Below are positions 2,338-55,611 of a DNA stretch of 64,000 nt, in pieces. This DNA is from Shigella phage Sf18. Within the stretch, counting starts at the first letter, position 1, and the number at the start of each line of letters is the position of its first letter. A model generated the notes under the pieces. The model ran no database searches. It saw nothing but the letters and a program-made list of their open reading frames with translations, and was not told the DNA's origin. Where the stretch lies: sequence record MF158044. One strand, written 5' to 3'. Made by a program: the position numbers and the translations under genes.

Positions 2338-2382
2338 TTATTTTATAAGGGGCTACACAGCCCCTAGAAAGAGGATTTATAA

Positions 2383-21516: not shown

Positions 21517-21601
21517 AGTGTTTGACAAGGGAGTACGAAGTCTGTAAGATTGTACTCCTTGATAGTTGAGTTGAAAGTTAATTTGAGAAAGAGGTATTAA
21601 A

Positions 21602-31978: not shown

Positions 31979-32047
31979 GTAGTTGACAAGGTGGTGTAGG
32001 TCTTGATAGGCTTACATCACCTTTTTTATTGAGTATGGAATTAACGT

Positions 32048-35899: not shown

Positions 35900-35943
35900 C
35901 AACTTTAGGGGCTGAAAAGCCCCACTTTGAGAGAGATAAAAAG

Positions 35944-37761
35944 ATGACTAAATCAATCTATGCAGTACCAGCAGGTCTTAATGCAGATGCTTATAAAGCG
36001 GGTCATATCTATCAGTATCCAGATGCTACACAGTATCTTATGTTGAACTTAACACCTCGTGGAGATAAATGGTTTAACTCTCCGTTAGAGATTGATGGTG
36101 TTGTAGCTTTTGGTATTCAGCGTTTTGTAAAAGACTATCTGGTAGACCACTGGAATGCAACGTTCTTTGAACGTGATAAGAAAGAAGCCATTGACGAAAT
36201 CTTGGAAATCATGAATGGTGTCCTTGGTGCAGATGCTATTGGTCGTCAACATTGGGAAGAACTTCATGACTTGGGTTACCTGCCTGTTGAAGTCTACTCT
36301 GTAGAGGAAGGTACAATTGTCCCTATGCGTGTCCCGATGATTGTCTTCAAAAACACTGTAGAAGGATTCCATTGGGTAGCTGGTTATCTTGAAGATGCTT
36401 TCTCTGCTGAAATCTGGAAGGCTTGTACGATTGCAACTATTGCACTGCATTACAAACGTATCTGTAAGCAATGGGCTGATAAGACCTGTGACAATGACTT
36501 CCATTTACCTTGGCAGTGTCATGACTTTGCAATGCGTGGTATGTCTGGCTTCACAGATGATGCGTTTAACGCAGTAGGTCACCTGACAAGTTTTAAAGGT
36601 ACTGACAGCTTCCCTGCTGTATATACAGCTAAACGTGCATATGGTCAGTTTATGAATGTAGGTGAGATTGGTAACTCTGTCCCAGCTACTGAGCACTCTG
36701 TGATGTGTGCAAACATCTCATGGAACAGTCTTAACAAAGAGGTAAGTGATTGGCATCTATCGCATTCTGACAACTTACTTGATGCAATGCGTTGGCGTGG
36801 TGAGGTAGAAACTTTCCATCGCCTTCTGACAGAAGTTTACCCAACTGGTATTGCAAGTGCCGTATCAGATACTTACAACTTCTGGCGTACTGTTACACAG
36901 ATTCTGCCAGAGCTACGTAATGTAATTCTGAATCGTGATGGTAAGTTGGTAATTCGTCCAGACTCTGGAGACCCTGTTCACATTGTTACAGGTTACAAAG
37001 CCATTGAATGGGAAACTGCTAAGTCAATGTTCTATAAGCACATGAAAGAGCTTGCACCGAACAATACACATCTGCATGACACAATCTTGAATTGTGAAAT
37101 GTCTGATATTGGCTTTGGGTTCTCTGCTTGGCTAATCTCTGAAGGTTATGAGATGGTTGTTGATAAAGAAGATTTTGAATCTGCTGATACAATCAACCTT
37201 ATTACTGCTCAGAAGACTGGACAGTTTACTGTGAAGCGTATGCTGACAGCAGAAATTGACGGAGCTATCCACACGCTGTATAACATCTTTGGTGGCACTG
37301 TTAACTCCAAAGGGTACAAAGTACTGGATGAGCACATTGGGCTAATCTACGGTGATTCTATCACTCTGGAAAGGGCTAATGATATTCTGTCACGTCTTGC
37401 TGATAAAGGTTTTGCAAGTTCTAACGTAGTGTTTGGTGTAGGTTCATACACCTATCAGTACCTGACTCGTGACACCTTTGCATTTGCTGTTAAAGCAACT
37501 CTTGCACAGATGGATGGTCAAGAAATTATGCTGGCTAAAGACCCTAAAACTGACAGCGGTCTTAAGAAGTCTGCTTTTGGTGGAGTTGTCCCTATGTGGG
37601 ATGGTGACAAGCTGGTAGCTGTAGATGGTTTTGGCTTTGCAGAGTTTGAAGGTGCAATTGACAATTGTCATAGTGCTTTGAAACTGGTATTTAGCAACTC
37701 GCAACCTTATGGTTACGTTAACCTGCGTGATGTTCGAAATACTATTGACAAGCAACTTTAA
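35944..37761 (+). CDS. nadV: nicotinamide phosphoribosyltransferase family protein (NadV/Nampt-like)
   Basis: 605 aa; Nampt-like N-terminus (AVPAGLNADAYKAGHIYQYP) and conserved core (GDSI, VFGVGSY blocks). Confidence 0.8.
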   Translation: MTKSIYAVPAGLNADAYKAGHIYQYPDATQYLMLNLTPRGDKWFNSPLEIDGVVAFGIQRFVKDYLVDHWNATFFERDKKEAIDEILEIMNGVLGADAIGRQHWEELHDLGYLPVEVYSVEEGTIVPMRVPMIVFKNTVEGFHWVAGYLEDAFSAEIWKACTIATIALHYKRICKQWADKTCDNDFHLPWQCHDFAMRGMSGFTDDAFNAVGHLTSFKGTDSFPAVYTAKRAYGQFMNVGEIGNSVPATEHSVMCANISWNSLNKEVSDWHLSHSDNLLDAMRWRGEVETFHRLLTEVYPTGIASAVSDTYNFWRTVTQILPELRNVILNRDGKLVIRPDSGDPVHIVTGYKAIEWETAKSMFYKHMKELAPNNTHLHDTILNCEMSDIGFGFSAWLISEGYEMVVDKEDFESADTINLITAQKTGQFTVKRMLTAEIDGAIHTLYNIFGGTVNSKGYKVLDEHIGLIYGDSITLERANDILSRLADKGFASSNVVFGVGSYTYQYLTRDTFAFAVKATLAQMDGQEIMLAKDPKTDSGLKKSAFGGVVPMWDGDKLVAVDGFGFAEFEGAIDNCHSALKLVFSNSQPYGYVNLRDVRNTIDKQL

Positions 37762-37775
37762 AACAGTATGATAAG

Positions 37776-37798
37776 AGGCTCCTACGGGAGCCTTTTTA
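37776..37798 (+). terminator. intrinsic terminator
   Basis: AGGCTCC-TACG-GGAGCCT hairpin followed by TTTTT. Confidence 0.55.
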
Positions 37799-38523: not shown

Positions 38524-38585
38524 CTTGACAGTGGCATCTATAAAATTATATAGTTTGCCACATCGACAACTAAGGAGATATTCTT

Positions 38586-40958
38586 ATGCGCATGGTAAAT
38601 GACCACGCAACGGTAATTAAAAGCTCAAGTACACTGGAAACCTCTCAGGCTCAGATTAAGATGACACCTGAAATGTTCAGTCTTCTAAGCTCAGGTGTTT
38701 ACACATATAAAGAACGTGCTGTAATTCGTGAATTGTCATGTAACGCAGTAGATGCTCACATTGATTCTGGTAACGTTGATAAACCTTTCTTGGTTCACTT
38801 ACCAACTCGTTTCGAGCCATTCTTTGAAGTTCGTGACTTTGGTACAGGGCTGACTCATGATAAAGTTATGAAACTTTACATGACCTATGGAGAATCTACA
38901 AAGAACGATTCAAACGACTACATTGGTGCTATGGGTATCGGTTCAAAGTCACCTTTTGCAATTGCTCAGTCATTCACTGTATCAAGCTATGTTGATGGTG
39001 TAGTTAACAAATACTCAGTTTACCTTGAGAATGGCATCCCTCAAGTAACTAAGTTGACTACTAACCCAACTACAGAGCCAAATGGTTTAGCTGTTCGAGT
39101 AGCGGTATCCGATAACCGTATCAACAAGTTTCATGAAGAAGCGAGCAATGTATACTCGTACTTTAAAGTTAAGCCAGAGTGTAATGTTGAGTACTATGAC
39201 ATTCTTGAAGCAATGACTTCCATTTCTCGTGAAGATGGTGTCTATGATGCAATGAAGTACAAAGAGAACTGGCGTTCAAATAGTAACAGTGTCCATTTCA
39301 ATGTAATCATGGGTAATATTGCTTATCCTGTTGAAATGGGTGAGTTGCTTGGTTCAGAGTTTACAAGCATTCTGCCTCAGTTCTTCCGTAGTGCTGTAGA
39401 CCTTGTTAACATCTACATGCCAATTGGTTCAGTGGCTATTGCTGCATCTCGTGAAGCATTGCAGATGAATGAGACCACTAAGACCAAGATTGTTGAAGCT
39501 GTGAAGAAAATCACTAAGACAATCGTAGAAGATGTGGTAAAAGAGATTGCTAACAAGCCAACTCTGATTGATGCTGCTCAAGCCTATGATACCATGAGGA
39601 AGGAGGCTCGTGAAATCTTTATTCACGTCCAAGATTCTCTGGAATGGCAAGGCCAGAACTTGAAAAAGCTTGAACAAAAACTGTTAGGTATCCGTCGTGG
39701 TCAGTTAACTGAAGCAGATGGTTCTCCATCATTCTTGAAAGATGATGCAGGTAACTTGAGGCTTGACAAAGATGGTAATCCAGTTCCTAATATTGGTAAT
39801 CTGTATGAACCTGTAGCATACTACAAGTACAGCAGTCTGGAGAACCGTATTCGAGCAACTTCAGCAACTTATTCACAAGATTCAGCAATGTTTAGTATCT
39901 TTGGTGCAATGAGTAAAGATAAGTTGAGCAACTATTTGTTCCTTATCAATGACCGTCGAAACAAGAACGGGTCTGAGAAGACAACTGGTAAAAACCAGAT
40001 TATCCGTGGAGCTTGCCGTGACCGTGAACAGGAAGACTCTAACTTCCGTCGCTACAACGGTATTGCTTTCTTGTTCAGCAGTCAGCAGCAATTCGATGAG
40101 TTTGTAGATTTGCATATGCTTGACAAGAGTCTGTTAAGTGTGCATACAATGTCATCTAAAGAGCACCACTATGAGAAACGTACTATTGTACGTGGTGTTG
40201 TAAAACTGTATAAAGCATTTATATGTCCAAATACCGACATAATTCGCTATACAGAGGTTAAAGAGAACTTTGATGAGATTGAAGAACCACAACTGTATAT
40301 CAAAGCACAGAGTGATGAAGTGATTGGTGGAATCTTCTCATGTTCACCAGAACGTGCTGCAACGTTGATGACAGAGTTAACTGGACAGTCAGTTTATGTC
40401 TTCCGTAAAGCCAACTGGAAAAAGATTCCTGAAGATTGGACAGAAGTCAATGAACAAGTATTGAAAGATTTTATTGATGCCACACATTGGATTGAGTATC
40501 ATCGTTTCTTGACTCACCAGTATATGACAAATAATCACGATATCACTGATTGTAATGTTATTTCTCGAAACTTTACGTTTGCTGATAAGCGTAAGTCCAG
40601 AGGCCACATTTACAGTAAAGATTTTAAGAAGACTATTTTCTTAGAAGGGAATGAAGAAGCTATAGAAGCAATGTTTGGACGCTTGGCATACACTGCTGCA
40701 CCAGTTGCTTACAAAGATATTACCAGCACTCTTGATACCATTCGTAGGAATATGAGAGGTTCTTGTAAGCCAAGAAAGGTTCTGGATAACGCTAAGAAGC
40801 GTCTTGAAAGCAAGTTCAAAGATTACTTTGAGAAACGCCGTAAAGAAAACTTCTTGCTTTCTAATCTGGATTGGAATAAAGTATCACCAGTCGAAGTTGG
40901 TAAGTTCTTAGGTTTTGATACTAAGAGCATTCCAGAAGACACTGTATGCTGGGATTAA
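38586..40958 (+). CDS. rIIA: rIIA-like protein
   Basis: 790 aa; N-terminal GHKL/Hsp90-like ATPase signature (RELSCNAVDAH...DFGTGL...GIGSKSPF); size and pairing with downstream gene as in rIIA/rIIB. Confidence 0.6.
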   Translation: MRMVNDHATVIKSSSTLETSQAQIKMTPEMFSLLSSGVYTYKERAVIRELSCNAVDAHIDSGNVDKPFLVHLPTRFEPFFEVRDFGTGLTHDKVMKLYMTYGESTKNDSNDYIGAMGIGSKSPFAIAQSFTVSSYVDGVVNKYSVYLENGIPQVTKLTTNPTTEPNGLAVRVAVSDNRINKFHEEASNVYSYFKVKPECNVEYYDILEAMTSISREDGVYDAMKYKENWRSNSNSVHFNVIMGNIAYPVEMGELLGSEFTSILPQFFRSAVDLVNIYMPIGSVAIAASREALQMNETTKTKIVEAVKKITKTIVEDVVKEIANKPTLIDAAQAYDTMRKEAREIFIHVQDSLEWQGQNLKKLEQKLLGIRRGQLTEADGSPSFLKDDAGNLRLDKDGNPVPNIGNLYEPVAYYKYSSLENRIRATSATYSQDSAMFSIFGAMSKDKLSNYLFLINDRRNKNGSEKTTGKNQIIRGACRDREQEDSNFRRYNGIAFLFSSQQQFDEFVDLHMLDKSLLSVHTMSSKEHHYEKRTIVRGVVKLYKAFICPNTDIIRYTEVKENFDEIEEPQLYIKAQSDEVIGGIFSCSPERAATLMTELTGQSVYVFRKANWKKIPEDWTEVNEQVLKDFIDATHWIEYHRFLTHQYMTNNHDITDCNVISRNFTFADKRKSRGHIYSKDFKKTIFLEGNEEAIEAMFGRLAYTAAPVAYKDITSTLDTIRRNMRGSCKPRKVLDNAKKRLESKFKDYFEKRRKENFLLSNLDWNKVSPVEVGKFLGFDTKSIPEDTVCWD

Positions 40959-40965
40959 AAATAGT

Positions 40966-40994
40966 TTGACAGGGGCTGAAAAGCCCCTTAGAAT
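40966..40994 (+). promoter_or_regulatory. sigma70-like promoter with hairpin in spacer
   Basis: TTGACA, 17-nt spacer GGGGCTGAAAAGCCCCT (perfect GAAA-loop hairpin), TAGAAT; 44 nt upstream of the rIIB-like start. Confidence 0.45.
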
Positions 40995-41037
40995 ACGAAC
41001 CACTAAGTAATTTTAAACAACAAAGAGAGATATTGAA

Positions 41038-42159
41038 ATGACTACTAAGACTAAAGCACAAATCGACGCAGAAATCTATGCACTGGTTAAAGAAGGTAAA
41101 CTGACCAAAACTGCAATTGCTCTGAAGTATAACACTTCAACCCGTTCAGTAGGTCGTGCTGTAGAGCGTCATGAAGCAACACTGCTGTCAGGGAAAACCA
41201 AAGCAAAACCTGCAAAGACTCTGAAAGATATTGCAAAGAATGCTAAGAAAGCTAAAGCGACCAAGAAAGTATCTAAGCAGAAACCTGTTGCAAAAGCTGT
41301 TAAAGAAGCAGTCAAAGCAGAGCCTGTAAATGCTCTGCATGAAGCAATGCAGAATAACAGCCAGATTGAATACATGATTACTGGTGATTCTGTTATCATG
41401 ACTTTCGGTGCAGAGTCTGAGATTGTTGAGTCAACTCATCCTAACTACACTGATATTGTAATGGCTGTTGTTTCAGGTGAGTACAAGAAAGCTTTTGAAC
41501 TGATGAACATTCGCAAGTCTATTGAGAACTTCACTCAAGGTGCTGTAACCATCAAAGGTGACAACCTGTATTACGGTGCTGTTCAGATGCGCTCAACTCT
41601 GGTAGACCGTATTCTGGATATGATGAAGAAAGGTGATAATGGTTTTGTTCGACTGATTGAATTCTTTGAAAAACTGATGGAAAACCCATCAAAAGATTCT
41701 GTAGAACAACTTTGGGGCTTTGTATCACACCTTGATGTTGAAATTGATGAAGAAGGTTATATCATCGGCTGGAAGAAAGTCACAACTCGTGGTGGTAAAC
41801 TGTTTGACTCTCGTACCTGCAAAGTTCCAAATGATTTGGGTAACATTGTAGAGATGCCACGTTGGATGGTTGATAATAACCGTCATGTAACCTGCTCTCA
41901 GGGTCTGCACGTTGGTGCTTGGGATTATGTAACTAGCTTCTCTGGTGACACTATCCTGAAAGTTCGTGTTCATCCTCGTGATGTTGTTTCAGTACCAACT
42001 GACTACAACGACATGAAAATGCGAGCTTCCCGCTATGAAGTTGCAGCGATTGTAAATAGTCGCCGTGAAGTCATCAAAGAGTGGGATGGTTCAGAAGCAC
42101 TCCACGTAGTTGTAGGTACTGCTGGTGAACTGATTTCTCAGCGTAAACGTGAAGTTTAA
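41038..42159 (+). CDS. rIIB: rIIB-like protein
   Basis: 373 aa; call rests on position immediately downstream of rIIA-like gene and size; no independent motif. Confidence 0.4.
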   Translation: MTTKTKAQIDAEIYALVKEGKLTKTAIALKYNTSTRSVGRAVERHEATLLSGKTKAKPAKTLKDIAKNAKKAKATKKVSKQKPVAKAVKEAVKAEPVNALHEAMQNNSQIEYMITGDSVIMTFGAESEIVESTHPNYTDIVMAVVSGEYKKAFELMNIRKSIENFTQGAVTIKGDNLYYGAVQMRSTLVDRILDMMKKGDNGFVRLIEFFEKLMENPSKDSVEQLWGFVSHLDVEIDEEGYIIGWKKVTTRGGKLFDSRTCKVPNDLGNIVEMPRWMVDNNRHVTCSQGLHVGAWDYVTSFSGDTILKVRVHPRDVVSVPTDYNDMKMRASRYEVAAIVNSRREVIKEWDGSEALHVVVGTAGELISQRKREV

Positions 42160-42199: not shown

Positions 42200-42260
42200 A
42201 TTTGAAAAATGTGCAGGTTAGTGTATAATTGTCTGCATGTTTAACAAAATAGGAGTGCAA

Positions 42261-42809
42261 ATGAAGAAATTTGTTTTAGGTTTGTGCTTATTCTTTACAG
42301 CACATTTAGCTACAGCATCTGACTGTCCAGAGCTTACAATCAGCCAGAAAGTTAATATGTTAAAAGCATATAACTATGGCGAAGGGCAGATGGGAAAAGG
42401 TTGGGGAATCCCTTTAGCAGCTATAGCCTTACAAGAGTCACAATTAGGTGTCATGTTAGAAAATAAAAAGACTCATGATTATGGTGTTTTCCAGAATCAC
42501 TTGAAGACTGTTGTAAAGCGTAACAAGGTATCTCCAAAGGTTGCTAAGAAGAAGCTAGTAAGTGACTTCCATTACTCAGCGAAAGAGGCTCATAAAGAGC
42601 TATTATTCTGGACTAAGGTTCATGGCAACCCAGATGGAAAGTACTCTATGAAGCGTGTCCTAGCTTCTTATAATGCTGGTTACAAATACAAGATTCCAAA
42701 GGCTAGACAATACTCTCAAGATGTGTACAATAACATGAAACTGCTTGCTCAATGTGAGTTTGCAACAAACATTAAAAAGGTAAAATATGAGCGAATCAAA
42801 ACAATTTGA
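42261..42809 (+). CDS. secreted lytic transglycosylase-like protein (GH23/SLT-like)
   Basis: Start at Met after AGGAG; signal peptide MKKFVLGLCLFFTAHLATA; E-S motif (ALQESQLG), G-x-x-Q (YGVFQ) and YNAG (LASYNAGY). Confidence 0.5.
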   Translation: MKKFVLGLCLFFTAHLATASDCPELTISQKVNMLKAYNYGEGQMGKGWGIPLAAIALQESQLGVMLENKKTHDYGVFQNHLKTVVKRNKVSPKVAKKKLVSDFHYSAKEAHKELLFWTKVHGNPDGKYSMKRVLASYNAGYKYKIPKARQYSQDVYNNMKLLAQCEFATNIKKVKYERIKTI

Positions 42810-43992: not shown

Positions 43993-44010
43993 ATTTCTAG
44001 GAGAAGTTAA

Positions 44011-44358
44011 ATGACGTTTAAAGAATTTTGTCAAGCAGCTTTTGCAATCATTTTCTTAACAGGTGTTGGTGCTTGGGGAGGCTACACTTACAAGACCAGC
44101 CAAGTTAATGAAAAGGAGTTAACTAACCAGAGACTTGTGAGTGTTGCTAAAGATGCTTATCAAGAGGGTTTATCAAATCTTAGCTCCAATTACAAAAATG
44201 ATTTGAAAGATGTGCTTGCTAAAAACAAACACACCAAAGAGGTATTGAACTATGAAAAAACTAAGACAGTCTTTATTAATGATTGTGCTACTGAGCCTTA
44301 TGTCAGGGTGTTCAACGAACAAAGTGAACAGTACCTTCAAAAACTCCCAAGTAAGTGA
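44011..44358 (+). CDS. type II membrane protein, candidate i-spanin
   Basis: 115 aa; single N-terminal TM (AAFAIIFLTGVGAWGG) then polar, partly helical domain; overlapped at 3' end by a lipoprotein ORF in another frame. Confidence 0.35.
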   Translation: MTFKEFCQAAFAIIFLTGVGAWGGYTYKTSQVNEKELTNQRLVSVAKDAYQEGLSNLSSNYKNDLKDVLAKNKHTKEVLNYEKTKTVFINDCATEPYVRVFNEQSEQYLQKLPSK

Positions 44359-44518
44359 GAGTGACAAGTACACTCAAGAAGAAGCACGGTATGAGGTTAA
44401 AGGTACTAAAGGTGAAGACCTTGCAAGTGCTCTTGAGTTTTATCGTGATGGTTACTATGAATGTACTATTAAGGCAAACAATTTAATTGATATGATTTTG
44501 TTAGGGAATAAGCAGTAA
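44252..44518 (+). CDS. lipoprotein, candidate o-spanin
   Basis: 88 aa; signal peptide with lipobox LMSGC; own SD AGAGG; overlaps preceding ORF by 107 nt out of frame. Confidence 0.35.
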   Translation: MKKLRQSLLMIVLLSLMSGCSTNKVNSTFKNSQVSESDKYTQEEARYEVKGTKGEDLASALEFYRDGYYECTIKANNLIDMILLGNKQ

Positions 44519-44787
44519 TGACAGAGAAGAATGAAACATTTTTTGTGGAAGGTTATCTTCTGTTACCAAGACCAAGTAACACTTACATGAGATTTGACAT
44601 TATGCCAACGGTTATGGATGATGTAACTTGTCACATCTTTATGCAGGGTGTTTCTGCACAACTTAAACATGTTGGAAGAGATTGCAAAATACGTGTTGAC
44701 AACCATCCTGAAATCAACGAGAATCACTACACATGGTTCGGGGAAGATTCTAAAGAAATCTATGCAGTCCTTAAAACGAGGAAGTGA
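44518..44787 (+). CDS. hypothetical protein
   Basis: 89-aa ORF. Confidence 0.35.
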   Translation: MTEKNETFFVEGYLLLPRPSNTYMRFDIMPTVMDDVTCHIFMQGVSAQLKHVGRDCKIRVDNHPEINENHYTWFGEDSKEIYAVLKTRK

Positions 44788-44796
44788 GGTTTAGTG

Positions 44797-45123
44797 ATGC
44801 AACTAGATGGTAAGAATTATGTAGCCGTCTTTTCAGACGGTGAGAAAGAAATTGGTACAGCACAAGTCTGTCACAGTGGTAAAGAGTTTCTCTATGGGGT
44901 TGTTGCATTCATTGGTACTCGTGGAGATATGAAATCTTTTAAAGATTGTGTTGACAAGCTTGAAGAATCCATAGAGAATCATTGGTGTCTGATATGGCTT
45001 AATGCAGAGAATGTTAAAGAACGCTATGCAAAAGTTGGTATCCATATTGAAAGCATCGAACATGTTGACCTGTTTGAGCTAACTGAAAAGGTGATGTATG
45101 AAAGCAATTCTGGTAAGAAGTAA
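44797..45123 (+). CDS. hypothetical protein
   Basis: Start at ATG after GAGGT SD (track begins at GTG). Confidence 0.35.
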   Translation: MQLDGKNYVAVFSDGEKEIGTAQVCHSGKEFLYGVVAFIGTRGDMKSFKDCVDKLEESIENHWCLIWLNAENVKERYAKVGIHIESIEHVDLFELTEKVMYESNSGKK

Positions 45124-45334
45124 AGTTACACGTCAAGTGTTAGTAGGGGCTATATTTGTTGGACGGGATGAGGTAATACCATTCATGAACCCCTTGATTC
45201 ACTACAACTTCAAGATAGGGGATTTTAAACACTACCTGAATCCTCTGCTTACAAGATTAAGCTTAGAAGAGTTTAAGTGTAATTACTCTTATGAAGGTGA
45301 TACATACTTCCAAGAGGTAATATCAAATGGCTGA
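45098..45334 (+). CDS. hypothetical protein
   Basis: 78-aa ORF. Confidence 0.3.
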   Translation: MKAILVRSKVTRQVLVGAIFVGRDEVIPFMNPLIHYNFKIGDFKHYLNPLLTRLSLEEFKCNYSYEGDTYFQEVISNG

Positions 45335-45527
45335 TTTCTGCACTAAGTGTTCTGTTGAGATGTTTGGAAAAGACACAGGGGACTTAAAAGGCCTCTTTAC
45401 AAAAGCAGAGTTTGAAGCTGGTTCAGCAATGCCAGTAATCTGTGAAGGTTGTGGTGCTTTATGGGTAGACCATGAAGGTAACCGAGTTAAACCATCTGAA
45501 GATAACGAACGTTGGGAGCATTACTAA
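45327..45527 (+). CDS. small zinc-ribbon protein
   Basis: 66 aa with CxxC...CxxC (CTKCS...CEGCG). Confidence 0.35.
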   Translation: MADFCTKCSVEMFGKDTGDLKGLFTKAEFEAGSAMPVICEGCGALWVDHEGNRVKPSEDNERWEHY

Positions 45528-45528
45528 T

Positions 45529-46323
45529 ATGGGTATCGTAAAAATTATTAAAGGTGATATCTTTAAAGACTTTGATGGTAAGAAATTTGATATCATTGGT
45601 CACGGTTGTAACTGCATGAACTTGATGGGTGCAGGTATTGCAGCAACAATTGCTAAACGCTACCCAAAAGCTTATGAAACTGACGCTGAAGTTTATGCTA
45701 CAGTAGGTGGTGAAAATCATAACCCTAAGCATCTAATGCTTGGTAACATCTCTGTAGCACGTTTTAAGCAGGGTCGAATTGCTAACCTTTACACTCAGGT
45801 TATCACTGGCAAAGATGCACGATACAACGCCTTAGAAGCAGCTTTACAGCGTCTTAACAACTACTGTAAAGTTAATCAACTTAAGAAAGTTGGGCTTCCG
45901 ATGATTGGTGCAGGGATTGGTGGTCTTGATAGCATGGCTGTACTGTCCATTATCAACCAGACTATGAAGGATGTTGACGTTTATATGTATGTCTATGAAG
46001 ATAAGATGTACAGTCAGTTGACTAGTCCTGTTACTGGTTGGGAGAACTTCAGTGAGCCTCAATACTTTGATGGTGTTGCTGTGGTAGGCAAGGATAAAGT
46101 TACCCTCAAGGTGAAGCGTAATGGCAAGGTACACACCAGTTACCCTCCGGTTGAGAAGTACAATCGAAGTAACGCTCAAGTTACCCACCCGTTACAAGGT
46201 CACCACCACAGAGCGGTAACGTTTAGCGATGATGCAAGTGTATATATCAATGCGACTACAGAAGAGTTTGCAGAAGATTATATCACACATGAAAACGTAA
46301 ACTATGTTGAAGCACGTAACTAA
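45529..46323 (+). CDS. macro-domain protein (ADP-ribose binding/hydrolase family)
   Basis: Start at Met (MGIVKIIKGDIF); macro signatures GDIF, DIIGHGCNCMNLMGAGIAATI, VGLPMIGAGIGGL; C-terminal 120 aa unassigned. Confidence 0.55.
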   Translation: MGIVKIIKGDIFKDFDGKKFDIIGHGCNCMNLMGAGIAATIAKRYPKAYETDAEVYATVGGENHNPKHLMLGNISVARFKQGRIANLYTQVITGKDARYNALEAALQRLNNYCKVNQLKKVGLPMIGAGIGGLDSMAVLSIINQTMKDVDVYMYVYEDKMYSQLTSPVTGWENFSEPQYFDGVAVVGKDKVTLKVKRNGKVHTSYPPVEKYNRSNAQVTHPLQGHHHRAVTFSDDASVYINATTEEFAEDYITHENVNYVEARN

Positions 46324-46391
46324 TAAGTTACCCAGATAAACATAGACAAGCCCTCCAAAGTTTGAGTTTAAAATCTCAGGTAAGGGGGGCT

Positions 46392-46576
46392 TTTTCATTT
46401 TAAATTTGTGCAGGTATAGTTGCATAGAACTCTGGACAGATTTCTTTAGCTGAACTCCAAAGGGAAAATTCATTTCAAATTTGTGCAGGTTTAGACTCCA
46501 AAGGGATTTTTCATTTTCAATCTGTGCAGATGCAGTTGGACTCCAAAGGGAAAATTCATTTTCAGTTTGTGCAGGT
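46392..46576. repeat. tandem array of four ~42-bp repeats with TTTGTGCAGGT core
   Basis: Units (CTCCAAAGGG)(A/T)TTCATTT(Y)MARTYTGTGCAGRT at about 46392, 46466, 46507, 46552; followed by C-rich tract 46596-46630; related motif upstream of SLT-like gene at 42203-42230. Confidence 0.55.
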
Positions 46577-46749
46577 AGGTAGCTGTAGGAAACCAGCCCC
46601 ACCACCCCCTCTTACTCCCCTTCCTCCCAAAAGTCAAGAGAAAAATTTGTAGAGAACTCAAAAATAATTCTTGACTAGATTCCTGTTTTAGTGTATCCGC
46701 ATACGTGCGTTCTATTCACGAAGCATCGAAAATATTTTTAAAAATTTTG

Positions 46750-46778
46750 TTGACTTCATAAATCCAGTCTTATAGTAT
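46750..46778 (+). promoter_or_regulatory. type-B early promoter (first of array)
   Basis: TTGACT, spacer, TATAGTAT, then ATTTGCATCAACGGGAAACATCCC and conserved leader AACAATCCTAAACTGGAG. Confidence 0.4.
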
Positions 46779-46827
46779 TTGCATCAACGGGAAACATCCC
46801 AACAATCCTAAACTGGAGAATCTAAAA

Positions 46828-47034
46828 ATGTTATATCAACGTGAGTTAATGATTGTTGACAACAACAAAACAAATAAACGTCGTTTCTATATGCTAATTT
46901 GTGATGTTTGGCAACGTATCTCAGAAAAGGATTTTGATGAATATGTTGATACGTCAATCAGGTCTGATTGTTATTTGACAACTCACACAAGGCATTACAC
47001 AAGGCATACAGCCATTTATTACTATAACGTTTAA
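46828..47034 (+). CDS. small hypothetical protein (array gene 1)
   Basis: 68 aa; preceded by conserved leader CCTAAACTGGAGAATCTAAAAATG. Confidence 0.45.
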   Translation: MLYQRELMIVDNNKTNKRRFYMLICDVWQRISEKDFDEYVDTSIRSDCYLTTHTRHYTRHTAIYYYNV

Positions 47035-47045
47035 AAGGCTTGACA

Positions 47046-47204
47046 ATGGTTAAAGAAAACGATGTAATACAATACAAAGATTTAGACGGATACCCAAAAA
47101 TTGGTAAAGTCTTCTATCTCTATAAGTCTGCTATGGGTAATGATTGTATAGCCCTTACAAATGGCGACAAAATAACCATGAAAGATTTTATAAAAATTAA
47201 TTAA
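47046..47204 (+). CDS. small hypothetical protein (below track cut-off)
   Basis: 52-aa ORF found by eye; stop TAA fused to the type-A cassette; weak SD. Confidence 0.25.
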   Translation: MVKENDVIQYKDLDGYPKIGKVFYLYKSAMGNDCIALTNGDKITMKDFIKIN

Positions 47205-47293
47205 ATAAAGTGCTTTACATGGGGTTTAAAAGCTAGTATCTTAAGCCCCCAGATAAAGAGCTTTACCAACAATCCTAAACTGGAGAATCTAAA
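47205..47293 (+). promoter_or_regulatory. type-A cassette copy 1
   Basis: TTTACA-N17-TATCTT promoter-like hexamers embedded in 9-bp hairpin GGGGTTTAA/TTAAGCCCC, then CCCCAGATAAAGAGCTTTACCAACAATCCTAAACTGGAGAATCTAAAATG. Confidence 0.5.
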
Positions 47294-47674
47294 ATGAAAT
47301 ATCGTGCGCCTAAATTTATCAACAAAGAAAACTTTCGTAGTATCTTAGAGGAAACTATGAAAGAAAACTTCAAAGGAAAAATAATTGTTGTTCACGCTTA
47401 CAATTTTAAGTATGATGTTAATGGTAACCGTATTAACCACTACAAAGCTACTATGCTTGACGGTACATTATCCGGTGAAAAAGCTATCATAAATGCTATT
47501 GCAGGACGTGGTAAAACTGTGATACGCTGTGAAAAAAGACGCTATCAAGGCGGTAAATATGGGTATGAAGATGCAATGTACCATCTTGATAAAATGGGGT
47601 ATGATGTAGAGAAAGCTGGAGTATCTCAAACTATTGGTAGTGACGGCTACGTTACAGTTTTCAAAATTAACTAA
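47294..47674 (+). CDS. small hypothetical protein (array gene)
   Basis: 126 aa; conserved cassette leader and SD. Confidence 0.5.
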   Translation: MKYRAPKFINKENFRSILEETMKENFKGKIIVVHAYNFKYDVNGNRINHYKATMLDGTLSGEKAIINAIAGRGKTVIRCEKRRYQGGKYGYEDAMYHLDKMGYDVEKAGVSQTIGSDGYVTVFKIN

Positions 47675-47765
47675 ATAAAGTCCTTTACATGGGGTTTATA
47701 GTTAGATAAGATAAGCCCCAGATAAAGAGCTTTACCAAACAATAACCTAAACTGGAGTATCAAAA
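47675..47765 (+). promoter_or_regulatory. type-A cassette copy 2
   Basis: TTTACA-N17-TAAGAT with hairpin GGGGTTTAT/ATAAGCCCC; leader variant CCTAAACTGGAGTATCAAAAATG. Confidence 0.5.
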
Positions 47766-48023
47766 ATGGCTACTATCAAAAACATCATTGTATCTGCAAA
47801 ATCTCGTGATGACGCTCGCGCAACTGCTAAAAAACTAAATGGTAAAGTGGTTGACAACGGAAAAGAATCTGCTGTAAGATGGGGCGTAAAATGTGATAAG
47901 GAAATTACTTTAAAACGTAGTTCCTATGACCTTTTCAAAGGTGTAAAAGCAATCGGTAGAACTAACGTCTACACGAAGAAAGGTTATAAAATGCACTTAT
48001 CATTAACTGACAATTTAATCTGA
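47766..48023 (+). CDS. small hypothetical protein (array gene)
   Basis: 85 aa, basic; cassette leader. Confidence 0.5.
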   Translation: MATIKNIIVSAKSRDDARATAKKLNGKVVDNGKESAVRWGVKCDKEITLKRSSYDLFKGVKAIGRTNVYTKKGYKMHLSLTDNLI

Positions 48024-48114
48024 TAAAGTGCTTTACATGGGGTTTATAGTTAGATAATATAAGCCCCAGATAAAGAGCTTTACTAACCAATAGTCCTAAA
48101 CTGGAGAATCTAAA
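48024..48114 (+). promoter_or_regulatory. type-A cassette copy 3
   Basis: TTTACA-N17-TAATAT with hairpin; conserved leader. Confidence 0.5.
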
Positions 48115-48627
48115 ATGAATTTTGTTGAAGCTACCTTTGAAGTCCAAAAAGAAAAATTCACTATCATCTATGAAGCTGTTAATATTTGTGAAGCATCCCA
48201 TTGTGTGGAGAATTGGAAGTTTACCGATGAGCACAAAGGCGGGGTTACAATCAAACTTAAAAATCCAGAGCGTAACGGGTACAAATATGCAATTCCACAG
48301 CATTACAGCCTTTCACAATTGATGAGTGATTATGCTAAACAAGGCCGCGAAAATCCATCTATAGAGGCTTACAAGAGCTTACAAGATGAATTACAAAGAG
48401 ATTTAGAGGCTAACAGCTACGTGCTATTTGCAAAGGTAGAAGATAAAGAAGGTAATACAGTATTAAATAGCTTTTCTCTTGCTTATGGCTTCGATTGGTG
48501 CTATCTTGACGGGGAAGATTTAGATTCACGATTAGAAGAGGAAGTGTCGAACTCCGATGGAGAATCTGAAGTAATGGAACGTTTAGAAGCCTTGAAAGAT
48601 TCTGTTATGAATATCTTTAATATCTAA
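48115..48627 (+). CDS. hypothetical acidic protein (array gene)
   Basis: 170 aa; cassette leader; acidic C-terminal third. Confidence 0.5.
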   Translation: MNFVEATFEVQKEKFTIIYEAVNICEASHCVENWKFTDEHKGGVTIKLKNPERNGYKYAIPQHYSLSQLMSDYAKQGRENPSIEAYKSLQDELQRDLEANSYVLFAKVEDKEGNTVLNSFSLAYGFDWCYLDGEDLDSRLEEEVSNSDGESEVMERLEALKDSVMNIFNI

Positions 48628-48711
48628 AAGTGCTTTACATGGGGTTATCAAGTTGATAAGATAGCCCCAGATAAAGAGCTTTACAAACAATCCTAAACTG
48701 GAGAATCTAAA
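48628..48711 (+). promoter_or_regulatory. type-A cassette copy 4
   Basis: Hairpin variant GGGGTTATC/GATAGCCCC (compensatory change keeps pairing); TTTACA-N17-TAAGAT. Confidence 0.5.
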
Positions 48712-49008
48712 ATGTTTATTGCCGCAAACGTTAGAACTAAATTAAGCCAGCTATTAAGTAATATCCAATTCATTGAATCTATGCGCCGTACATCTGAAGC
48801 CGTAGAGTGGTATCATGGAAAGATTAACAAAAAGGAAGTAATAATTTGTGTATGGAACTTTTGTAAAGAATACAAAAAACCATTGCTTCAGGTTGATATC
48901 TATGATAACACTAATAAGTCATCGATTAAGACCACTAGAGATATGGTTGATTCATATGAAATTAGTCACACTGGTAAACTATTCCACAAAGGTAAAAACA
49001 AATGTTAA
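48712..49008 (+). CDS. small hypothetical protein (array gene)
   Basis: 98 aa; cassette leader; stop overlaps next start (ATGTTAA). Confidence 0.5.
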   Translation: MFIAANVRTKLSQLLSNIQFIESMRRTSEAVEWYHGKINKKEVIICVWNFCKEYKKPLLQVDIYDNTNKSSIKTTRDMVDSYEISHTGKLFHKGKNKC

Positions 49009-49349
49009 TCACATACGTTGCAATTTTTATCTCTATTGTGGCGCTCTATAAAGCCTTACAAGCGCACAGTATAGCTAATAAGGCACTTACAAGGGATTTA
49101 AAAATAAACCTTGTACGGGGCTTTCTAGAGCGTTTAAGCTTAGAACAATTGAAACGCTTAGAGATGAGCTTTCGATTCAAAGCAGAAACATACCGGATTG
49201 ATAACATCCTAGACGGGGATTTTAAATTAATCAGTGATTATGACATACTTCTTGAGTCAATTCAAGATATAAACCTGAAAGATTATTATATCGTGATAGC
49301 GCAAGAAATTAATAAAAAAGAGCTTGCAATGCAGAATCAAAACAAGTAA
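49002..49349 (+). CDS. small membrane protein (array gene)
   Basis: 115 aa; N-terminal TM (ITYVAIFISIVALY); last 11 codons (KKELAMQNQNK) lie inside a type-B promoter and are shared with ORF 52598-52738. Confidence 0.45.
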   Translation: MLITYVAIFISIVALYKALQAHSIANKALTRDLKINLVRGFLERLSLEQLKRLEMSFRFKAETYRIDNILDGDFKLISDYDILLESIQDINLKDYYIVIAQEINKKELAMQNQNK

Positions 49350-49352
49350 AGT
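49324..49352 (+). promoter_or_regulatory. type-B promoter overlapping gene 3' end
   Basis: TTGCAA-N17-TAAAGT; the TAA of the -10 hexamer is the stop codon of ORF 49002-49349. Confidence 0.45.
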
Positions 49353-49629
49353 ATTCATCAACGGTACTAATGACGGTCGAACTTTGAACGTAACTTTAAA
49401 ACACTATATAGACGGTGTATTAAACTTTGAAGAGTTAAGAGCAGAACAGCACCTATTAGATTGGCAAGTAGCAGGTTTACAAAAAACCGCCACAGGATAT
49501 GGAAAGAAAATTCCTACATCTTGGAAAGTTCGATACCTTGGAAAGTTACGCAGAATTTATCAAGATGTTTACAGTAATAGCGGCGTAAGTTACATTATTG
49601 TTAGTGGTAAAAAATTGTATTTAGTCTAA
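49324..49629 (+). pseudogene. ORF without canonical start or leader (possible 5'-truncated gene)
   Basis: 101-aa frame open only from TTG at 49324; no in-frame ATG and no CTAAACTGGAG leader; begins inside the type-B promoter; ends at a normal type-A cassette. Confidence 0.25.
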
Positions 49630-49718
49630 TAAATTGCTTTACATGGGGTTATCAAGTTGCTAAGATAGCCCCAGATAAAGAGATTTATCTAAAACTAACC
49701 TAAACTGGAGACTAGAAA
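49630..49718 (+). promoter_or_regulatory. type-A cassette copy 5
   Basis: Hairpin variant GGGGTTATC/GATAGCCCC; leader variant ACCTAAACTGGAGACTAGAAAATG. Confidence 0.5.
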
Positions 49719-50126
49719 ATGACTAATGTTAATCACAAAGAAGTTGCAATTTTGAAAGCACGTTTGACCATTAACCGCATCAACATTGTAACATCAGCAG
49801 CACCAGACGAAACACTACATAATATCATCGGTAAAATTCAGGGCGCAGTAGTAGACACAAAACAGCTTAAAGAATCCTTGCAAGATGTAGCAGCAGGAGC
49901 TATAATTGACGGTGCTCAATATGAGATGAAGGAAATGCTGTCAAAGTCAAAAGTAATGAATAAAGAACTTGACTTGAAAATGTTTAGATTTGCTGTTAAA
50001 GTGTGGCTATGTGTTGATTTTGATGCAAACTTTGCAATTGCTGATTTCTTTGCAACATGGTTACAGCGTAACTTACCGGTTGAAGTTTTCCGTGAAATCT
50101 GCGATGCAATTTATTCAGAAATTTGA
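49719..50126 (+). CDS. hypothetical protein (array gene)
   Basis: 135 aa; cassette leader. Confidence 0.5.
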   Translation: MTNVNHKEVAILKARLTINRINIVTSAAPDETLHNIIGKIQGAVVDTKQLKESLQDVAAGAIIDGAQYEMKEMLSKSKVMNKELDLKMFRFAVKVWLCVDFDANFAIADFFATWLQRNLPVEVFREICDAIYSEI

Positions 50127-50155
50127 TTGACACTGCAAAAGCATAGTAGTAAAGT
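50127..50155 (+). promoter_or_regulatory. type-B early promoter
   Basis: TTGACA-N17-TAAAGT starting on the base after the upstream stop codon; followed by conserved leader. Confidence 0.5.
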
Positions 50156-50198
50156 ACTCATCAGACAACGAAACAACCCTAAACTGGAGATTCAAAAG

Positions 50199-51090: not shown

Positions 51091-51153
51091 ACCATAGAAT
51101 CACACCAGTTCACTAGAAAAGCCCCGCACAGGGGCTTACAAGAGGCTTAAAAC

Positions 51154-51413: not shown

Positions 51414-51462
51414 ATTCATCAACGGGAAACATCCCAACAATCCTAAACTGGAGATTCAAAAA

Positions 51463-55602: not shown

Positions 55603-55611
55603 TGTATAGTT

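What the first reader, a model, noticed from the sequence alone, without database searches (positions are those of the whole stretch)
40966..40994. Promoter whose 17-nt spacer is a perfect hairpin; same hairpin reused upstream of the NadV-like gene
Upstream of the rIIB-like gene, TTGACA and TAGAAT are separated by exactly 17 nt that form GGGGCT-GAAA-AGCCCC. The identical hairpin (ACAGGGGCTGAAAAGCCCC) recurs at about 35905-35923 before the NadV-like gene. Together with the type-A cassettes this shows a recurrent design in which stable hairpins are embedded in promoter spacers, which could couple termination of upstream transcripts to re-initiation or form regulated cruciforms.
Basis: seen in the sequence. 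Interest (0 to 1): 0.4.

Follow-up and report, generated by a model that had tools for sequence, protein, structure and literature searches.

The report
Phage promoter wrapped around RNA hairpin
The phage's rIIB gene has a conserved host-type promoter whose two recognition boxes flank a small stable hairpin that probably marks the end of the upstream rIIA message; T4-like phages are already known to use this promoter-plus-hairpin design ("PeSL"), so this is a new example, not a new principle.

Summary
TTGACA (40966-40971) and TAGAAT (40989-40994) are 17 nt apart, and the spacer is the hairpin AGGGGCT-GAAA-AGCCCCT (-13.5 kcal/mol).

The window is a Mooglevirus-like Ounavirinae phage. Hexamers and stem are conserved in 30 relatives down to Felix-O1-like phages, while the loop and flanks vary. 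More distant relatives keep a different hairpin at the same rIIA-rIIB junction, with or without a promoter.

Hairpins overlapping promoters recur in the window (13 of 27 intergenic promoter-like sites against 11 of 139 inside genes). As a class these hairpins fold better as sense RNA, with UNCG/GNRA loops on the coding strand and G·U pairs. The promoter-embedded ones lack a U-tract.

Published PeSL cassettes of T4-type phages have the same architecture, and I confirmed this on phage phi1 sequence.

Best reading (0.55): a sigma70 promoter for rIIB built around an RNA hairpin that ends or protects the rIIA transcript. The promoter's own transcripts lack the hairpin. A cruciform role is unsupported.

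Novelty: new member of a known kind. Interest about 0.3.

The parts
38586..40958 (+). rIIA gene (upstream cistron); the hairpin starts 12 nt after its stop codon
   Evidence: ORF list. Matches 'rIIA protein' of Shigella phages Sf17/Sf14 at 98.6-98.9% nt identity.
40955..40965 (+). AT-rich tract (TTAAAAATAGT) just upstream of the -35 box, overlapping the rIIA stop codon
   Evidence: Sequence. Same layout as phi1 PeSLs, which read TAAAAAGTTGTTGACA.
40966..40971 (+). -35 box TTGACA
   Evidence: Identical in 29 of 30 hairpin-bearing relatives (TTGACT in L007).
40971..40988 (+). Hairpin AGGGGCT-GAAA-AGCCCCT filling the promoter spacer (arms 40971-40977 and 40982-40988, loop 40978-40981)
   Evidence: -13.5 kcal/mol. 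Stem invariant except one mismatch variant; loop varies among GAAA, GCAA, TTGA and TCAA in relatives.
40989..40994 (+). -10 box TAGAAT
   Evidence: TAGAAT or TAAAAT in all 30 hairpin-bearing relatives.
40999..41002 (+). Predicted transcription start zone (about 6-8 nt after the -10 box). Transcripts from this promoter would not contain the hairpin.
   Evidence: Inference from standard sigma70 promoter geometry; not mapped.
41023..41040 (+). Shine-Dalgarno-like AAGAGAG and the rIIB start codon (ATG 41038)
   Evidence: conserved block in the alignment.
41038..42159 (+). rIIB gene (downstream cistron served by the promoter)
35907..35923 (+). Twin hairpin (A)GGGGCT-GAAA-AGCCCC between the PRPP-synthetase gene (stop 35899) and nadV (ATG 35944). 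No promoter boxes.
   Evidence: -12.8 kcal/mol. Stem conserved and loop hypervariable in 22 of 28 relatives; the other six have an extra ORF there instead.
2348..2365 (+). Third member of the same stem family, AGGGGCT-ACAC-AGCCCCT, between two tail-fibre genes. No promoter, no U-tract.
38525..38561 (+). rIIA promoter TTGACA-18-TATAGT with hairpin arms GTGGCA/TGCCAC enclosing the spacer and the -10 box. Source of the read-through RNA that would carry the 40971 hairpin.
   Evidence: -13.1 kcal/mol.
21522..21563 (+). Another promoter (TTGACA-17-TAAGAT) enclosed by a hairpin (AAGGGAGTAC/GTACTCCTT)
   Evidence: -14.4 kcal/mol; sense -14.0, antisense -9.6.
37745..37796 (+). Promoter TTGACA-16-TATGAT followed 3 nt later by the terminator AGGCTCC-TACG-GGAGCCT-TTTT. 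The predicted start lies inside the 5' arm.
   Evidence: conserved in 28 relatives.
47205..47293 (+). Type-A cassette: TTTACA, then a hairpin GGGGTTT...AAGCCCC enclosing the spacer and -10 box, then the leader CCTAAACTGGAGA. First of eight copies (others: 47675-47765, 48024-48114, 48628-48711, 49630-49718, 50448-50532, 51685-51775, 51974-52058).
   Evidence: Cassettes 47205 and 48628 bound a 3-ORF indel relative to Sf14, whose junction cassette is a chimera of the two.

Best explanation
This is a PeSL-type composite element. A host sigma70 promoter (TTGACA-17-TAGAAT with an AT-rich upstream tract) drives rIIB. Its spacer is occupied by a small GC hairpin that acts in RNA, not in the promoter DNA. 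Transcripts that start at the rIIA promoter (38525) and read through the rIIA stop codon fold this hairpin 12 nt past the stop. There it most likely defines and protects the 3' end of the rIIA message, through pausing or partial termination and as a barrier to 3' exonucleases. Transcripts born at the rIIB promoter start about 10 nt downstream of the hairpin and never contain it. The overlap packs the end of one transcription unit and the start of the next into 29 bp and lets rIIB be expressed independently of rIIA. Shown here: the anatomy, its conservation, the recurrence of the design, the sense-RNA bias of the hairpin class, and the missing U-tract. Inferred: promoter activity, the start site, and what the hairpin does to the RNA.
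For: The promoter scores 11 of 12 with a 17-nt spacer. In 30 hairpin-bearing relatives the hexamers and stem are conserved, while the loop and the 13 nt after the -10 box diverge; the spacer is 17 nt in Moogle-like and 18 nt in Felix-O1-like phages. At the same rIIA-rIIB junction other Ounavirinae carry different hairpins. Yersinia phage P778 has TTGACA-17-TTAAAT inside a 15-bp stem with G·U pairs (sense -22.7, antisense -8.1 kcal/mol). IMG/VR locus L030 has TTGACA-17-TCTAAT with a hairpin over the -10 box (sense -12.1, antisense -7.5). Erwinia phage phiEa21-4 (GGGCUG-GAAA-CAGCCC) and Pectobacterium phage Wc4-1 have a hairpin but no promoter. So the hairpin is more widespread than the promoter and does not depend on it, as also holds for the promoterless twin before nadV. 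Class-level evidence for RNA: 11 of 12 intergenic tetraloop hairpins carry UNCG or GNRA on the coding strand, including those next to minus-strand genes, and none carries the reverse orientation (corrected with the Sf17 annotation). All 30 hairpin elements fold better as sense than as antisense RNA. Without pre-selection, 29 of 32 co-directional intergenic regions do so, against 189 of 300 coding windows (p = 9e-5). Hairpins sit 7-13 nt after the upstream stop codon in most cases (28 nt for 51119) but 16-49 nt before the next start codon, which fits a 3' element of the upstream cistron. In Felix O1 RT-PCR, ORF1 (rIIA) peaks at 25 min and ORF2 (rIIB) at 10 min, which fits separate control (PMC3185647). 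The published PeSLs have the same architecture; a whole PeSL (206/205) gave promoter activity and an isolated stem-loop (211/210) reduced downstream lacZ in reporters (PMC2839356). Real phi1 PeSLs read TTGACA-GGGGATC-ACC-GATCCCC-TATACT.
Against: No 5' or 3' transcript ends have been mapped for any Ounavirinae phage that I could find. The hairpin itself is a perfect palindrome, so only its GAAA loop argues for the sense strand (sense -13.5, antisense -12.6). Felix-O1-like relatives carry non-special loops (UUGA, UCAA), and two loci (L015, L031) have a C·A mismatch on the sense strand that would be G·U on the antisense strand. The stem is nearly invariant among alignable relatives, so there is no true covariation. 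The tail after the hairpin is U-poor (score 1.0), so the attenuation part is weak. The stabiliser role rests on analogy from my own knowledge (T4 intercistronic tetraloop hairpins, E. coli REP elements).
Confidence: 0.55

Rival explanations
1. Efficient terminator plus re-initiation. The hairpin is a strong intrinsic terminator that stops essentially all rIIA transcription inside the rIIB promoter, and rIIB depends wholly on its own promoter.
For: In RB49/phi1, the stem-loop of PeSL211/210 placed between a promoter and lacZ reduced expression about as much as rrnB T1 (PMC2839356). The phi1 in-spacer stem-loops are also followed only by the -10 box.
Against: The tail after the stem is TAGAATAC, with a score of 1.0. 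Nine of this phage's ten U-tract terminators score 3.8-5.0; the tenth (9740) scores 1.34 because two C's precede its T-run. The twin hairpin before nadV sits inside an apparent operon with no promoter after it, so a strong terminator there would silence nadV. The sequence of the construct tested in the paper was not available.
Confidence: 0.15
2. No functional link. The hairpin (an RNA element, a recombination hotspot, or a remnant of a mobile cassette) and the promoter simply share a very short intergenic region in a compact genome.
For: The hairpin exists without a promoter at nadV, at the tail-fibre junction, and at the rIIA-rIIB junction of Erwinia and Pectobacterium phages. Intergenic regions are very short throughout.
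Against: Overlap is far commoner than chance: 13 of 27 against 11 of 139, and 6 of 20 against 11 of 139 with the repeat family collapsed (p = 0.009). Three different geometries of overlap occur at the same junction in different lineages. The stem fits exactly between the hexamers in both the 17-nt and the 18-nt spacer versions.
Confidence: 0.15
3. Operator. The 18-bp palindrome AGGGGCT-N4-AGCCCCT in the spacer is the binding site of a dimeric phage regulator (for example the Cro/CI-type HTH protein encoded at 8531-8830) that shuts off the promoter.
For: It is a perfect palindrome in the classic repressor position between -35 and -10. The arms are conserved and the centre is free to vary. The phage encodes an HTH regulator.
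Against: The complete Sf17 genome holds only three copies, and only one lies in a promoter; the others sit between tail-fibre genes and before nadV. Other promoter-embedded hairpins have unrelated arm sequences, loops up to 19 nt and G·U pairs that are mismatches in DNA. That pattern fits structure rather than sequence recognition.
Confidence: 0.08
4. DNA-level structure. The palindrome extrudes as a cruciform, or stiffens the spacer, and makes the promoter sensitive to supercoiling.
For: Loop inversions among relatives (TACG to CGTA; central TG to CA) show that these palindromes do pair within one DNA strand or recombine arm-to-arm at least occasionally.
Against: A 7-bp GC arm with a 4-nt centre is very short for extrusion at physiological superhelicity (my own knowledge). 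The hairpin class is strand-asymmetric, which DNA cruciforms would not require. The same hairpin occurs away from promoters.
Confidence: 0.07

Closest known systems
PeSL (promoter-early stem-loop) cassettes of T4-type phages RB49/phi1, PST/T4 and nt-1/KVP40 (Arbiol et al. 2010, PMC2839356; Comeau et al. 2014, PMC4122927)
   Same: Near-consensus sigma70 promoter with an AT-rich tract upstream. A G-run/C-run stem-loop lies most often between -35 and -10 or over the -10 box. A Shine-Dalgarno site and start codon follow. No U-tract follows the in-spacer stem. Real phi1 examples: TTGACA-GGGGATC-ACC-GATCCCC-TATACT and TTGACA-GGGGATCGGTGATCCCC-T-TATAAT-AC, against TTGACA-GGGGCTGAAAAGCCCC-T-TAGAAT-AC here. 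The same genome also has a repeated cassette family in a hyperplastic early region that bounds indels, with a chimeric junction cassette in Sf14.
   Different: The host phage belongs to Ounavirinae, not the T4-like Straboviridae, and I found no paper using the term PeSL for this group. This particular element sits between two conserved, syntenic genes (rIIA, rIIB), is not one of the repeated cassettes, and shows no indel at its site. Its hairpin also exists alone elsewhere and in relatives that lack the promoter.
Rho-independent (intrinsic) terminators, and terminator-promoter pairs in compact phage genomes
   Same: A GC-rich stem with a stable tetraloop shortly after a stop codon, next to the promoter of the following gene.
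   Different: No U-tract, whereas the phage's ten U-tract terminators (nine with UNCG or GAAA tetraloops) have 5-7 T in the next 8 nt.
Intercistronic stable tetraloop hairpins of phage T4 mRNAs (Tuerk et al. 1988) and REP-type 3' stabilisers of E. coli operons (my own knowledge, not checked here)
   Same: Small, very stable hairpins between cistrons, with UNCG or GNRA loops on the sense strand, placed just past the stop codon. They are thought to block 3' exonucleases and set the relative stability of cistrons.
   Different: Those elements are not described as forming the spacer of a promoter. The function here is untested.
Hairpin promoters of phage N4 virion RNA polymerase (my own knowledge)
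   Same: A short DNA hairpin is part of a phage promoter.
   Different: N4 promoters have a 3-nt loop, no sigma70 hexamers, and need a phage-encoded RNA polymerase. Here canonical hexamers flank a 4-nt-loop hairpin, and no phage RNA polymerase is annotated (PMC3185647).

Membership tests
PeSL (promoter-early stem-loop) composite element | Near-consensus sigma70 promoter (-35, about 17-nt spacer, -10) | tested here: met
   TTGACA-17-TAGAAT, 11 of 12; conserved in relatives.
PeSL (promoter-early stem-loop) composite element | [quoted passage not shown] | tested here: met
   TTAAAAATAGT at 40955-40965 includes the rIIA TAA. phi1 PeSLs read TAAAAAGTTGTTGACA.
PeSL (promoter-early stem-loop) composite element | Stable stem-loop with a G-run and C-run placed between -35 and -10, or overlapping a box | tested here: met
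   AGGGGCT-GAAA-AGCCCCT fills the spacer, -13.5 kcal/mol. Same position as in phi1 PeSLs and as described in PMC2839356.
PeSL (promoter-early stem-loop) composite element | Shine-Dalgarno site and start codon of the downstream gene at the 3' end | tested here: met
   AAGAGAG 41023-41029 and ATG 41038.
PeSL (promoter-early stem-loop) composite element | The stem-loop terminates or attenuates transcription coming from upstream; the promoter is active | not testable with these tools
   No transcript mapping found. Sequence only: no U-tract. Indirect: Felix O1 ORF1 and ORF2 peak at different times.
PeSL (promoter-early stem-loop) composite element | Member of a repeated family in hyperplastic regions, flanking ORFans and marking indels by cassette-cassette recombination | tested here: not met
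   For this element: it lies between conserved, syntenic rIIA and rIIB, the region is 100% covered at about 98.7% in relatives, and there is no indel. For the eight type-A cassettes of the same genome the feature is met: the early region is only 50-65% covered, a 3-ORF indel is bounded by cassettes, and Sf14 has a chimeric junction cassette.
Rho-independent terminator | GC-rich hairpin immediately followed by a U-tract | tested here: not met
   The hairpin is present, but the tail is TAGAATAC: 2 T in 8, score 1.0, against 3.8-5.0 for nine of the ten U-tract terminators of this phage.
N4-type hairpin promoter | 5-7 bp stem with a 3-nt loop, recognised by a phage-encoded virion RNA polymerase, without sigma70 boxes | tested here: not met
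   4-nt loop, with canonical hexamers flanking it. No RNA polymerase gene in the Sf17 annotation. The Felix O1 paper states the phage encodes none.
Palindromic repressor operator | The same palindrome recurs at the promoters of a regulon and is recognised by sequence | tested here: inconclusive
   Three copies in the genome, one in a promoter. Other promoter hairpins have unrelated arms and G·U pairs. Protein binding is not testable here.
Rfam RNA families | Match to a curated covariance model | tested here: not met
   Nothing meaningful in 34000-54500 at E up to 1.

The most novel reading that the evidence does not exclude
Promoter-embedded hairpins are a general, possibly convergent device of virulent enterobacterial myoviruses, now seen in Ounavirinae as well as T4-likes, and they work on two levels. 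As sense RNA they end or protect upstream messages. As DNA palindromes they pair within a strand often enough to flip their loops and to seed cassette recombination, and may thereby also tune the promoter they sit in, for instance on replicating or supercoiled DNA. On this reading the rIIB element would be a regulated switch rather than a passive overlap.
Probability: 0.1. Interest if true: 0.55.

Novelty: new member of a known kind. Interest (0 to 1): 0.3.

Why it matters
It extends the PeSL design (a host-type promoter fused to a stem-loop) from T4-like phages to the Felix-O1/Moogle group, which is used in Salmonella and Shigella typing and therapy. For that group the 2010 Felix O1 genome paper states that it is not known how transcription gets past the many terminators or how it is timed. 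The comparative data add three points that the PeSL papers did not address. The hairpins are strand-asymmetric, as expected of RNA elements. At the rIIA-rIIB junction the hairpin is more widespread than the promoter. The same junction has been solved with three different overlap geometries. Practically, it supplies a promoter and transcription-unit boundary for annotation and for engineering these phages. It is not a new principle.

Tried and rejected
1. Covariation test on the hairpin. The stem is almost invariant in all alignable relatives, so there are no compensatory pairs to count. More distant relatives have unalignable hairpins, which shows structural persistence only.

2. Transcript-mapping literature for Felixounavirus, Ounavirinae or Mooglevirus. 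None found. The CRISPRi-ART paper on SUSP1 covers rII function only.

3. Supplement of the PeSL paper, to see whether the tested stem-loop had a U-tract. Not held.

4. Rfam. No family matched.

5. The first automated tetraloop census misfiled four hairpins, including the target, as 'in CDS', because of spurious or over-extended ORFs from my crude gene caller. I corrected this by hand against the Sf17 annotation.

6. N4-type hairpin promoter: rejected (canonical hexamers, 4-nt loop, no phage RNA polymerase).

7. RNase III site: rejected from my own knowledge (7 bp is too short).

8. Duplication as the source of the twin hairpin: cannot be decided. The AGGGGCT/AGCCCC stem is a favoured stem in this phage (three sites in this orientation, and three more in the reverse arrangement AGCCCC...GGGGCT), so convergence within a small design space is as likely as copying.

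9. Hafnia phage SarahDanielle has only 20 nt between rIIA and rIIB, with neither hairpin nor promoter, so the element is not universal in the subfamily.

Full report
**Observation**

The sequence is as described. The rIIA stop codon TAA is at 40956-40958, TTGACA at 40966-40971 and TAGAAT at 40989-40994. The spacer between the boxes is 17 nt, GGGGCTGAAAAGCCCC plus T. The stem can be read as 7 bp (AGGGGCT / AGCCCCT, loop GAAA), so it borrows the last A of the -35 box and the T just before the -10 box.

- The consensus scan gives 11 of 12 matches with a 17-nt spacer.
- The 29-mer folds at -13.5 kcal/mol, z = -4.2, with 0 of 200 shuffles as stable.
- A random 17-mer of this composition contains such a hairpin with P = 6.6e-4.
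- The 16-mer occurs exactly twice in the window, against 0.01 expected.

The second copy (35908-35923) lies between the PRPP-synthetase gene (stop 35899) and nadV (ATG 35944). That copy has no -35 or -10 box.

**Where the window comes from**

The rII region is 98.6-98.9% identical over its full length to Shigella phages Sf13, Sf14 and Sf17. These belong to Ounavirinae, genus Mooglevirus, close to Felix O1. Their annotation names the flanking genes as ribose-phosphate pyrophosphokinase, nicotinamide phosphoribosyltransferase, rIIA and rIIB. The hosts are enterobacteria. The Felix O1 genome paper states that the phage encodes no RNA polymerase and no known specificity modifiers (PMC3185647), so sigma70-type boxes are the relevant promoter model.

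**Conservation**

I collected the rIIB-upstream region from 30 IMG/VR loci and phage Mordin. Thirty of these 31 sequences (Mordin and all loci but L030) carry the same element.

- The -35 box is TTGACA in all but L007, which has TTGACT.
- The stem AGGGGCT/AGCCCCT is invariant, apart from a G-to-A variant in L015 and L031.
- The -10 box is TAGAAT or TAAAAT.
- The loop varies (GAAA, GCAA, TTGA, TCAA), and the 13 nt after the -10 box and the bases before the -35 box differ between genera.
- The spacer is 17 nt in Moogle/SUSP-like phages and 18 nt in Felix-O1-like phages. In both, the stem fills it exactly.

Further out in the subfamily the sequence changes, but a hairpin persists at the same junction:

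| Phage or locus | rIIA-rIIB junction | Sense / antisense fold (kcal/mol) |
|---|---|---|
| IMG/VR locus L030 (57% rIIB identity) | TTGACA-17-TCTAAT with a hairpin AAGUGGUC/GGCCACUU over the -10 box | -12.1 / -7.5 |
| Yersinia phage P778 | TTGACA-17-TTAAAT inside a 15-bp stem rich in G·U pairs | -22.7 / -8.1 |
| Erwinia phage phiEa21-4 | Hairpin GGGCUG-GAAA-CAGCCC, no sigma70 boxes | -12.6 / -13.9 |
| Pectobacterium phage Wc4-1 | Hairpin, no sigma70 boxes | -13.0 / -13.9 |
| Hafnia phage SarahDanielle | 20-nt gap, neither hairpin nor promoter | not applicable |

So the hairpin is more widely distributed than the promoter. Where both occur they overlap, in three different geometries.

**The twin hairpin and its family**

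In 22 of 28 relatives the nadV-upstream hairpin keeps the GGGGCT/AGCCCC stem. Its loop is hypervariable: GAAA, GCAT, TACA, TTCA, TGAA, TAAA, TCAA, TGAC, TTTA. It is followed by A(C/T)TTTG and never has promoter boxes. The other six relatives have an extra ORF there instead. A third copy of the stem (AGGGGCT-ACAC-AGCCCCT, 2348-2365) lies between two tail-fibre genes. The hairpin is therefore an element in its own right. The rIIB promoter is one place where a promoter is built around it.

**A recurrent design**

I compared promoter-like sites in intergenic regions upstream of genes with equally good promoter-like hits inside coding regions. Thirteen of 27 intergenic sites fold at -8 kcal/mol or better between the -35 box and about +14, against 11 of 139 inside genes (Mann-Whitney p = 1.8e-4; Fisher p = 2.5e-6). 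Collapsing the eight-copy cassette family to one gives 6 of 20, p = 0.009.

Examples:
- The rIIA promoter at 38525: TTGACA, arms GTGGCA/TGCCAC around the spacer and TATAGT.
- The promoter at 21522.
- The promoter at 42202.
- The eight type-A cassettes: TTTACA, then GGGGTTT...AAGCCCC around the spacer and TAAGAT.

A sister design places a terminator hairpin 1-3 nt after the -10 box, so the predicted start falls inside the 5' arm. It occurs at 34149, 37745 and 43939.

**RNA or DNA?**

The target hairpin is a perfect palindrome, so I asked the question of the class.

1. Of 12 intergenic GC hairpins with 4-nt loops, 11 carry UNCG or GNRA on the coding strand. This includes three next to minus-strand genes (9740, 61318, 63084). 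None carries the reverse-complement loop (corrected). A strand-blind DNA model would predict equal numbers.
2. All 30 hairpin elements fold better as sense than as antisense RNA, by 3.0 kcal/mol on average.
3. Without any pre-selection, 29 of 32 co-directional intergenic regions fold better as sense RNA. For length-matched coding windows the figure is 189 of 300 (p = 9e-5).
4. The promoter-enclosing hairpins of P778 and L030 contain G·U pairs that would be C·A mismatches on the other strand.
5. Most hairpins sit 7-13 nt after the upstream stop codon (28 nt for 51119), but 16-49 nt before the next start codon.

These points place the action in the sense transcript, at the 3' side of the upstream cistron.

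**Terminator or not?**

Tail scores are bimodal. Of the ten hairpins followed by a T-run (seven UNCG tetraloops, plus 63084, 31988 and 34179), nine score 3.8-5.0. The tenth (9740) scores 1.34, because two C's precede its T-run. The target scores 1.0, its nadV twin 0.9, and the other promoter-embedded or leader-adjacent hairpins 0.0-0.7. So the element is not a canonical intrinsic terminator. At most it is a weak attenuator or pause site.

**Comparison with what is known**

Arbiol et al. 2010 (PMC2839356) and Comeau et al. 2014 (PMC4122927) described PeSLs in T4-type phages. [quoted passage not shown] A Shine-Dalgarno site and start codon follow. A whole PeSL (206/205) gave promoter activity and an isolated stem-loop (211/210) reduced downstream lacZ in reporters, and recombination between PeSLs shuffles ORFans in hyperplastic regions.

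I extracted real PeSLs from phage phi1:
- TTGACA-GGGGATC-ACC-GATCCCC-TATACT
- TTGACA-GGGGATCGGTGATCCCC-T-TATAAT-AC

The element here reads TTGACA-GGGGCTGAAAAGCCCC-T-TAGAAT-AC, which is the same architecture. phi1 also has promoterless hairpins such as GGGGGC-GAAA-GCCCCC.

The PeSL hallmark of cassette-mediated shuffling also holds in this genome, but for the type-A cassettes rather than for the rIIB element:
- The early region 44-54.2 kb is only 50-65% covered in the closest relatives, although the rII region is fully covered.
- Sf14 lacks three ORFs (47296-48627) bounded exactly by two cassettes.
- The single Sf14 junction cassette is a chimera of those two cassettes.

The rIIB element itself sits between conserved, syntenic genes and marks no indel.

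**Mechanism and rivals**

My best explanation (confidence 0.55) has three parts. The host sigma70 polymerase starts rIIB transcripts about 6-8 nt after TAGAAT, so these transcripts lack the hairpin. Read-through RNA from the rIIA promoter folds the hairpin 12 nt past the rIIA stop. There it pauses or partly terminates transcription and blocks 3' exonucleases, which defines the rIIA 3' end and uncouples the two genes.

This agrees with Felix O1 RT-PCR, in which ORF1 (rIIA) peaks at 25 min and ORF2 (rIIB) at 10 min.

Rivals:
- Efficient terminator plus restart (0.15). The U-poor tail and the promoterless twin inside an operon argue against it.
- Coincidental overlap (0.15). The enrichment and the repeated, differently built overlaps argue against it.
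- Palindromic operator (0.08). Only one of three genomic copies lies in a promoter.
- Cruciform or spacer mechanics (0.07). The stem is short and the class is strand-asymmetric.

None of these can be settled without transcript mapping. I found no such data for this phage group.

**Verdict**

The feature is real, non-random and conserved. The termination-restart idea matches a published model but is only weakly supported by the sequence, and the cruciform idea is not supported. It is a new member (in Ounavirinae) of a known kind (PeSL-type composite promoter/stem-loop elements). Interest is about 0.3.

Noticed in passing
window 37776-37793 against loci L041, L042, L051; window 40971-40988 against L009-L031; window 35908-35923 against L039-L059: Hairpin loops flip to their exact reverse complement among relatives. 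The terminator loop TACG becomes CGTA (four changes at once, in 3 of 28 loci). The centre of the rIIB-promoter hairpin is TG or CA (13 against 9 loci), with both states on the same downstream haplotypes and no intermediates. The nadV-upstream loops include the reverse-complement pairs TTCA/TGAA and TAAA/TTTA. This looks like recurrent small inversions driven by the inverted arms.
   Followed up: partly
window 44000-54200 (cassettes at 47205-47293, 47675-47765, 48024-48114, 48628-48711, 49630-49718, 50448-50532, 51685-51775, 51974-52058): The early region is hyperplastic: only 50-65% is shared with the closest relatives, in 4-10 pieces. Eight about-90-nt promoter/hairpin/leader cassettes lie between small ORFs. 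Sf14 lacks three ORFs (47296-48627) and carries a chimeric junction cassette. Sf14 also has a tandem duplication bounded by a cassette. This is PeSL-like modular shuffling in an Ounavirinae phage.
   Followed up: yes
window 46807-53711 (15 sites) and 42261-42809: The leader CCTAAACTGGAGA occurs 15 times upstream of early ORF starts (0.11 expected) and contains GGAG. A gene annotated in phage Mordin as similar to the T4 RegB endoribonuclease (which cuts GGAG in early Shine-Dalgarno sites) lies just after rIIB. This suggests RegB-like inactivation of early mRNAs. Copies at 50178 and 51442 fall inside my called ORFs, so those start codons are probably further downstream.
   Followed up: no
window 52749-52772, 53340-53372, 53665-53695, 51116-51140: A second kind of early cassette: a GGGGAGG...CCUCCCC (or AAGCCCC...GGGGCUU) hairpin without promoter boxes and without a U-tract, placed 13-28 nt after a stop codon and followed by the same leader.
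   Followed up: partly
window 46324-46827 and 42202-42229: A 504-nt non-coding stretch holds four repeats of about 40 nt ending in ...CATTT(C/T)AAATTTGTGCAGGT (46405, 46480, 46521, 46566). A similar ATGTGCAGGT lies in the spacer of the TTGAAA-16-TATAAT promoter after the rIIB terminator. It may be a regulator site or another promoter class; Mordin annotates repeat regions here.
   Followed up: no
window 9410-9766 and 10813-11377: Two long non-coding stretches among minus-strand replication genes. They hold repeated units of ACC-rich runs (CCTGACC, CCGACC, AACC...), each ending in AAAGACCCTTTTAAAGACCTTTTAAAAAGG-like palindromic A/T blocks. No CDS is annotated there in Sf17.
   Followed up: no
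window 53972-55611: A 1.6-kb non-coding region dense in short repeats (CTTGTTAG, TATAGAG, GTTAAGAG). It coincides with the ends of the linear Sf17 record, so it is probably the genome terminus or terminal-repeat region.
   Followed up: no
loci L033, L034, L036-L038, L043 (upstream of nadV): Six relatives carry an extra ORF directly upstream of nadV in place of the hairpin-bearing junction, an indel at the site of the twin hairpin.
   Followed up: no
window 31983-32030: TTGACA is immediately followed by a 16-bp G·U-containing hairpin plus TTTTTATT (sense -23.3, antisense -10.9 kcal/mol). This is a full terminator whose stem-loop covers the spacer and -10 region of a possible promoter.
   Followed up: partly
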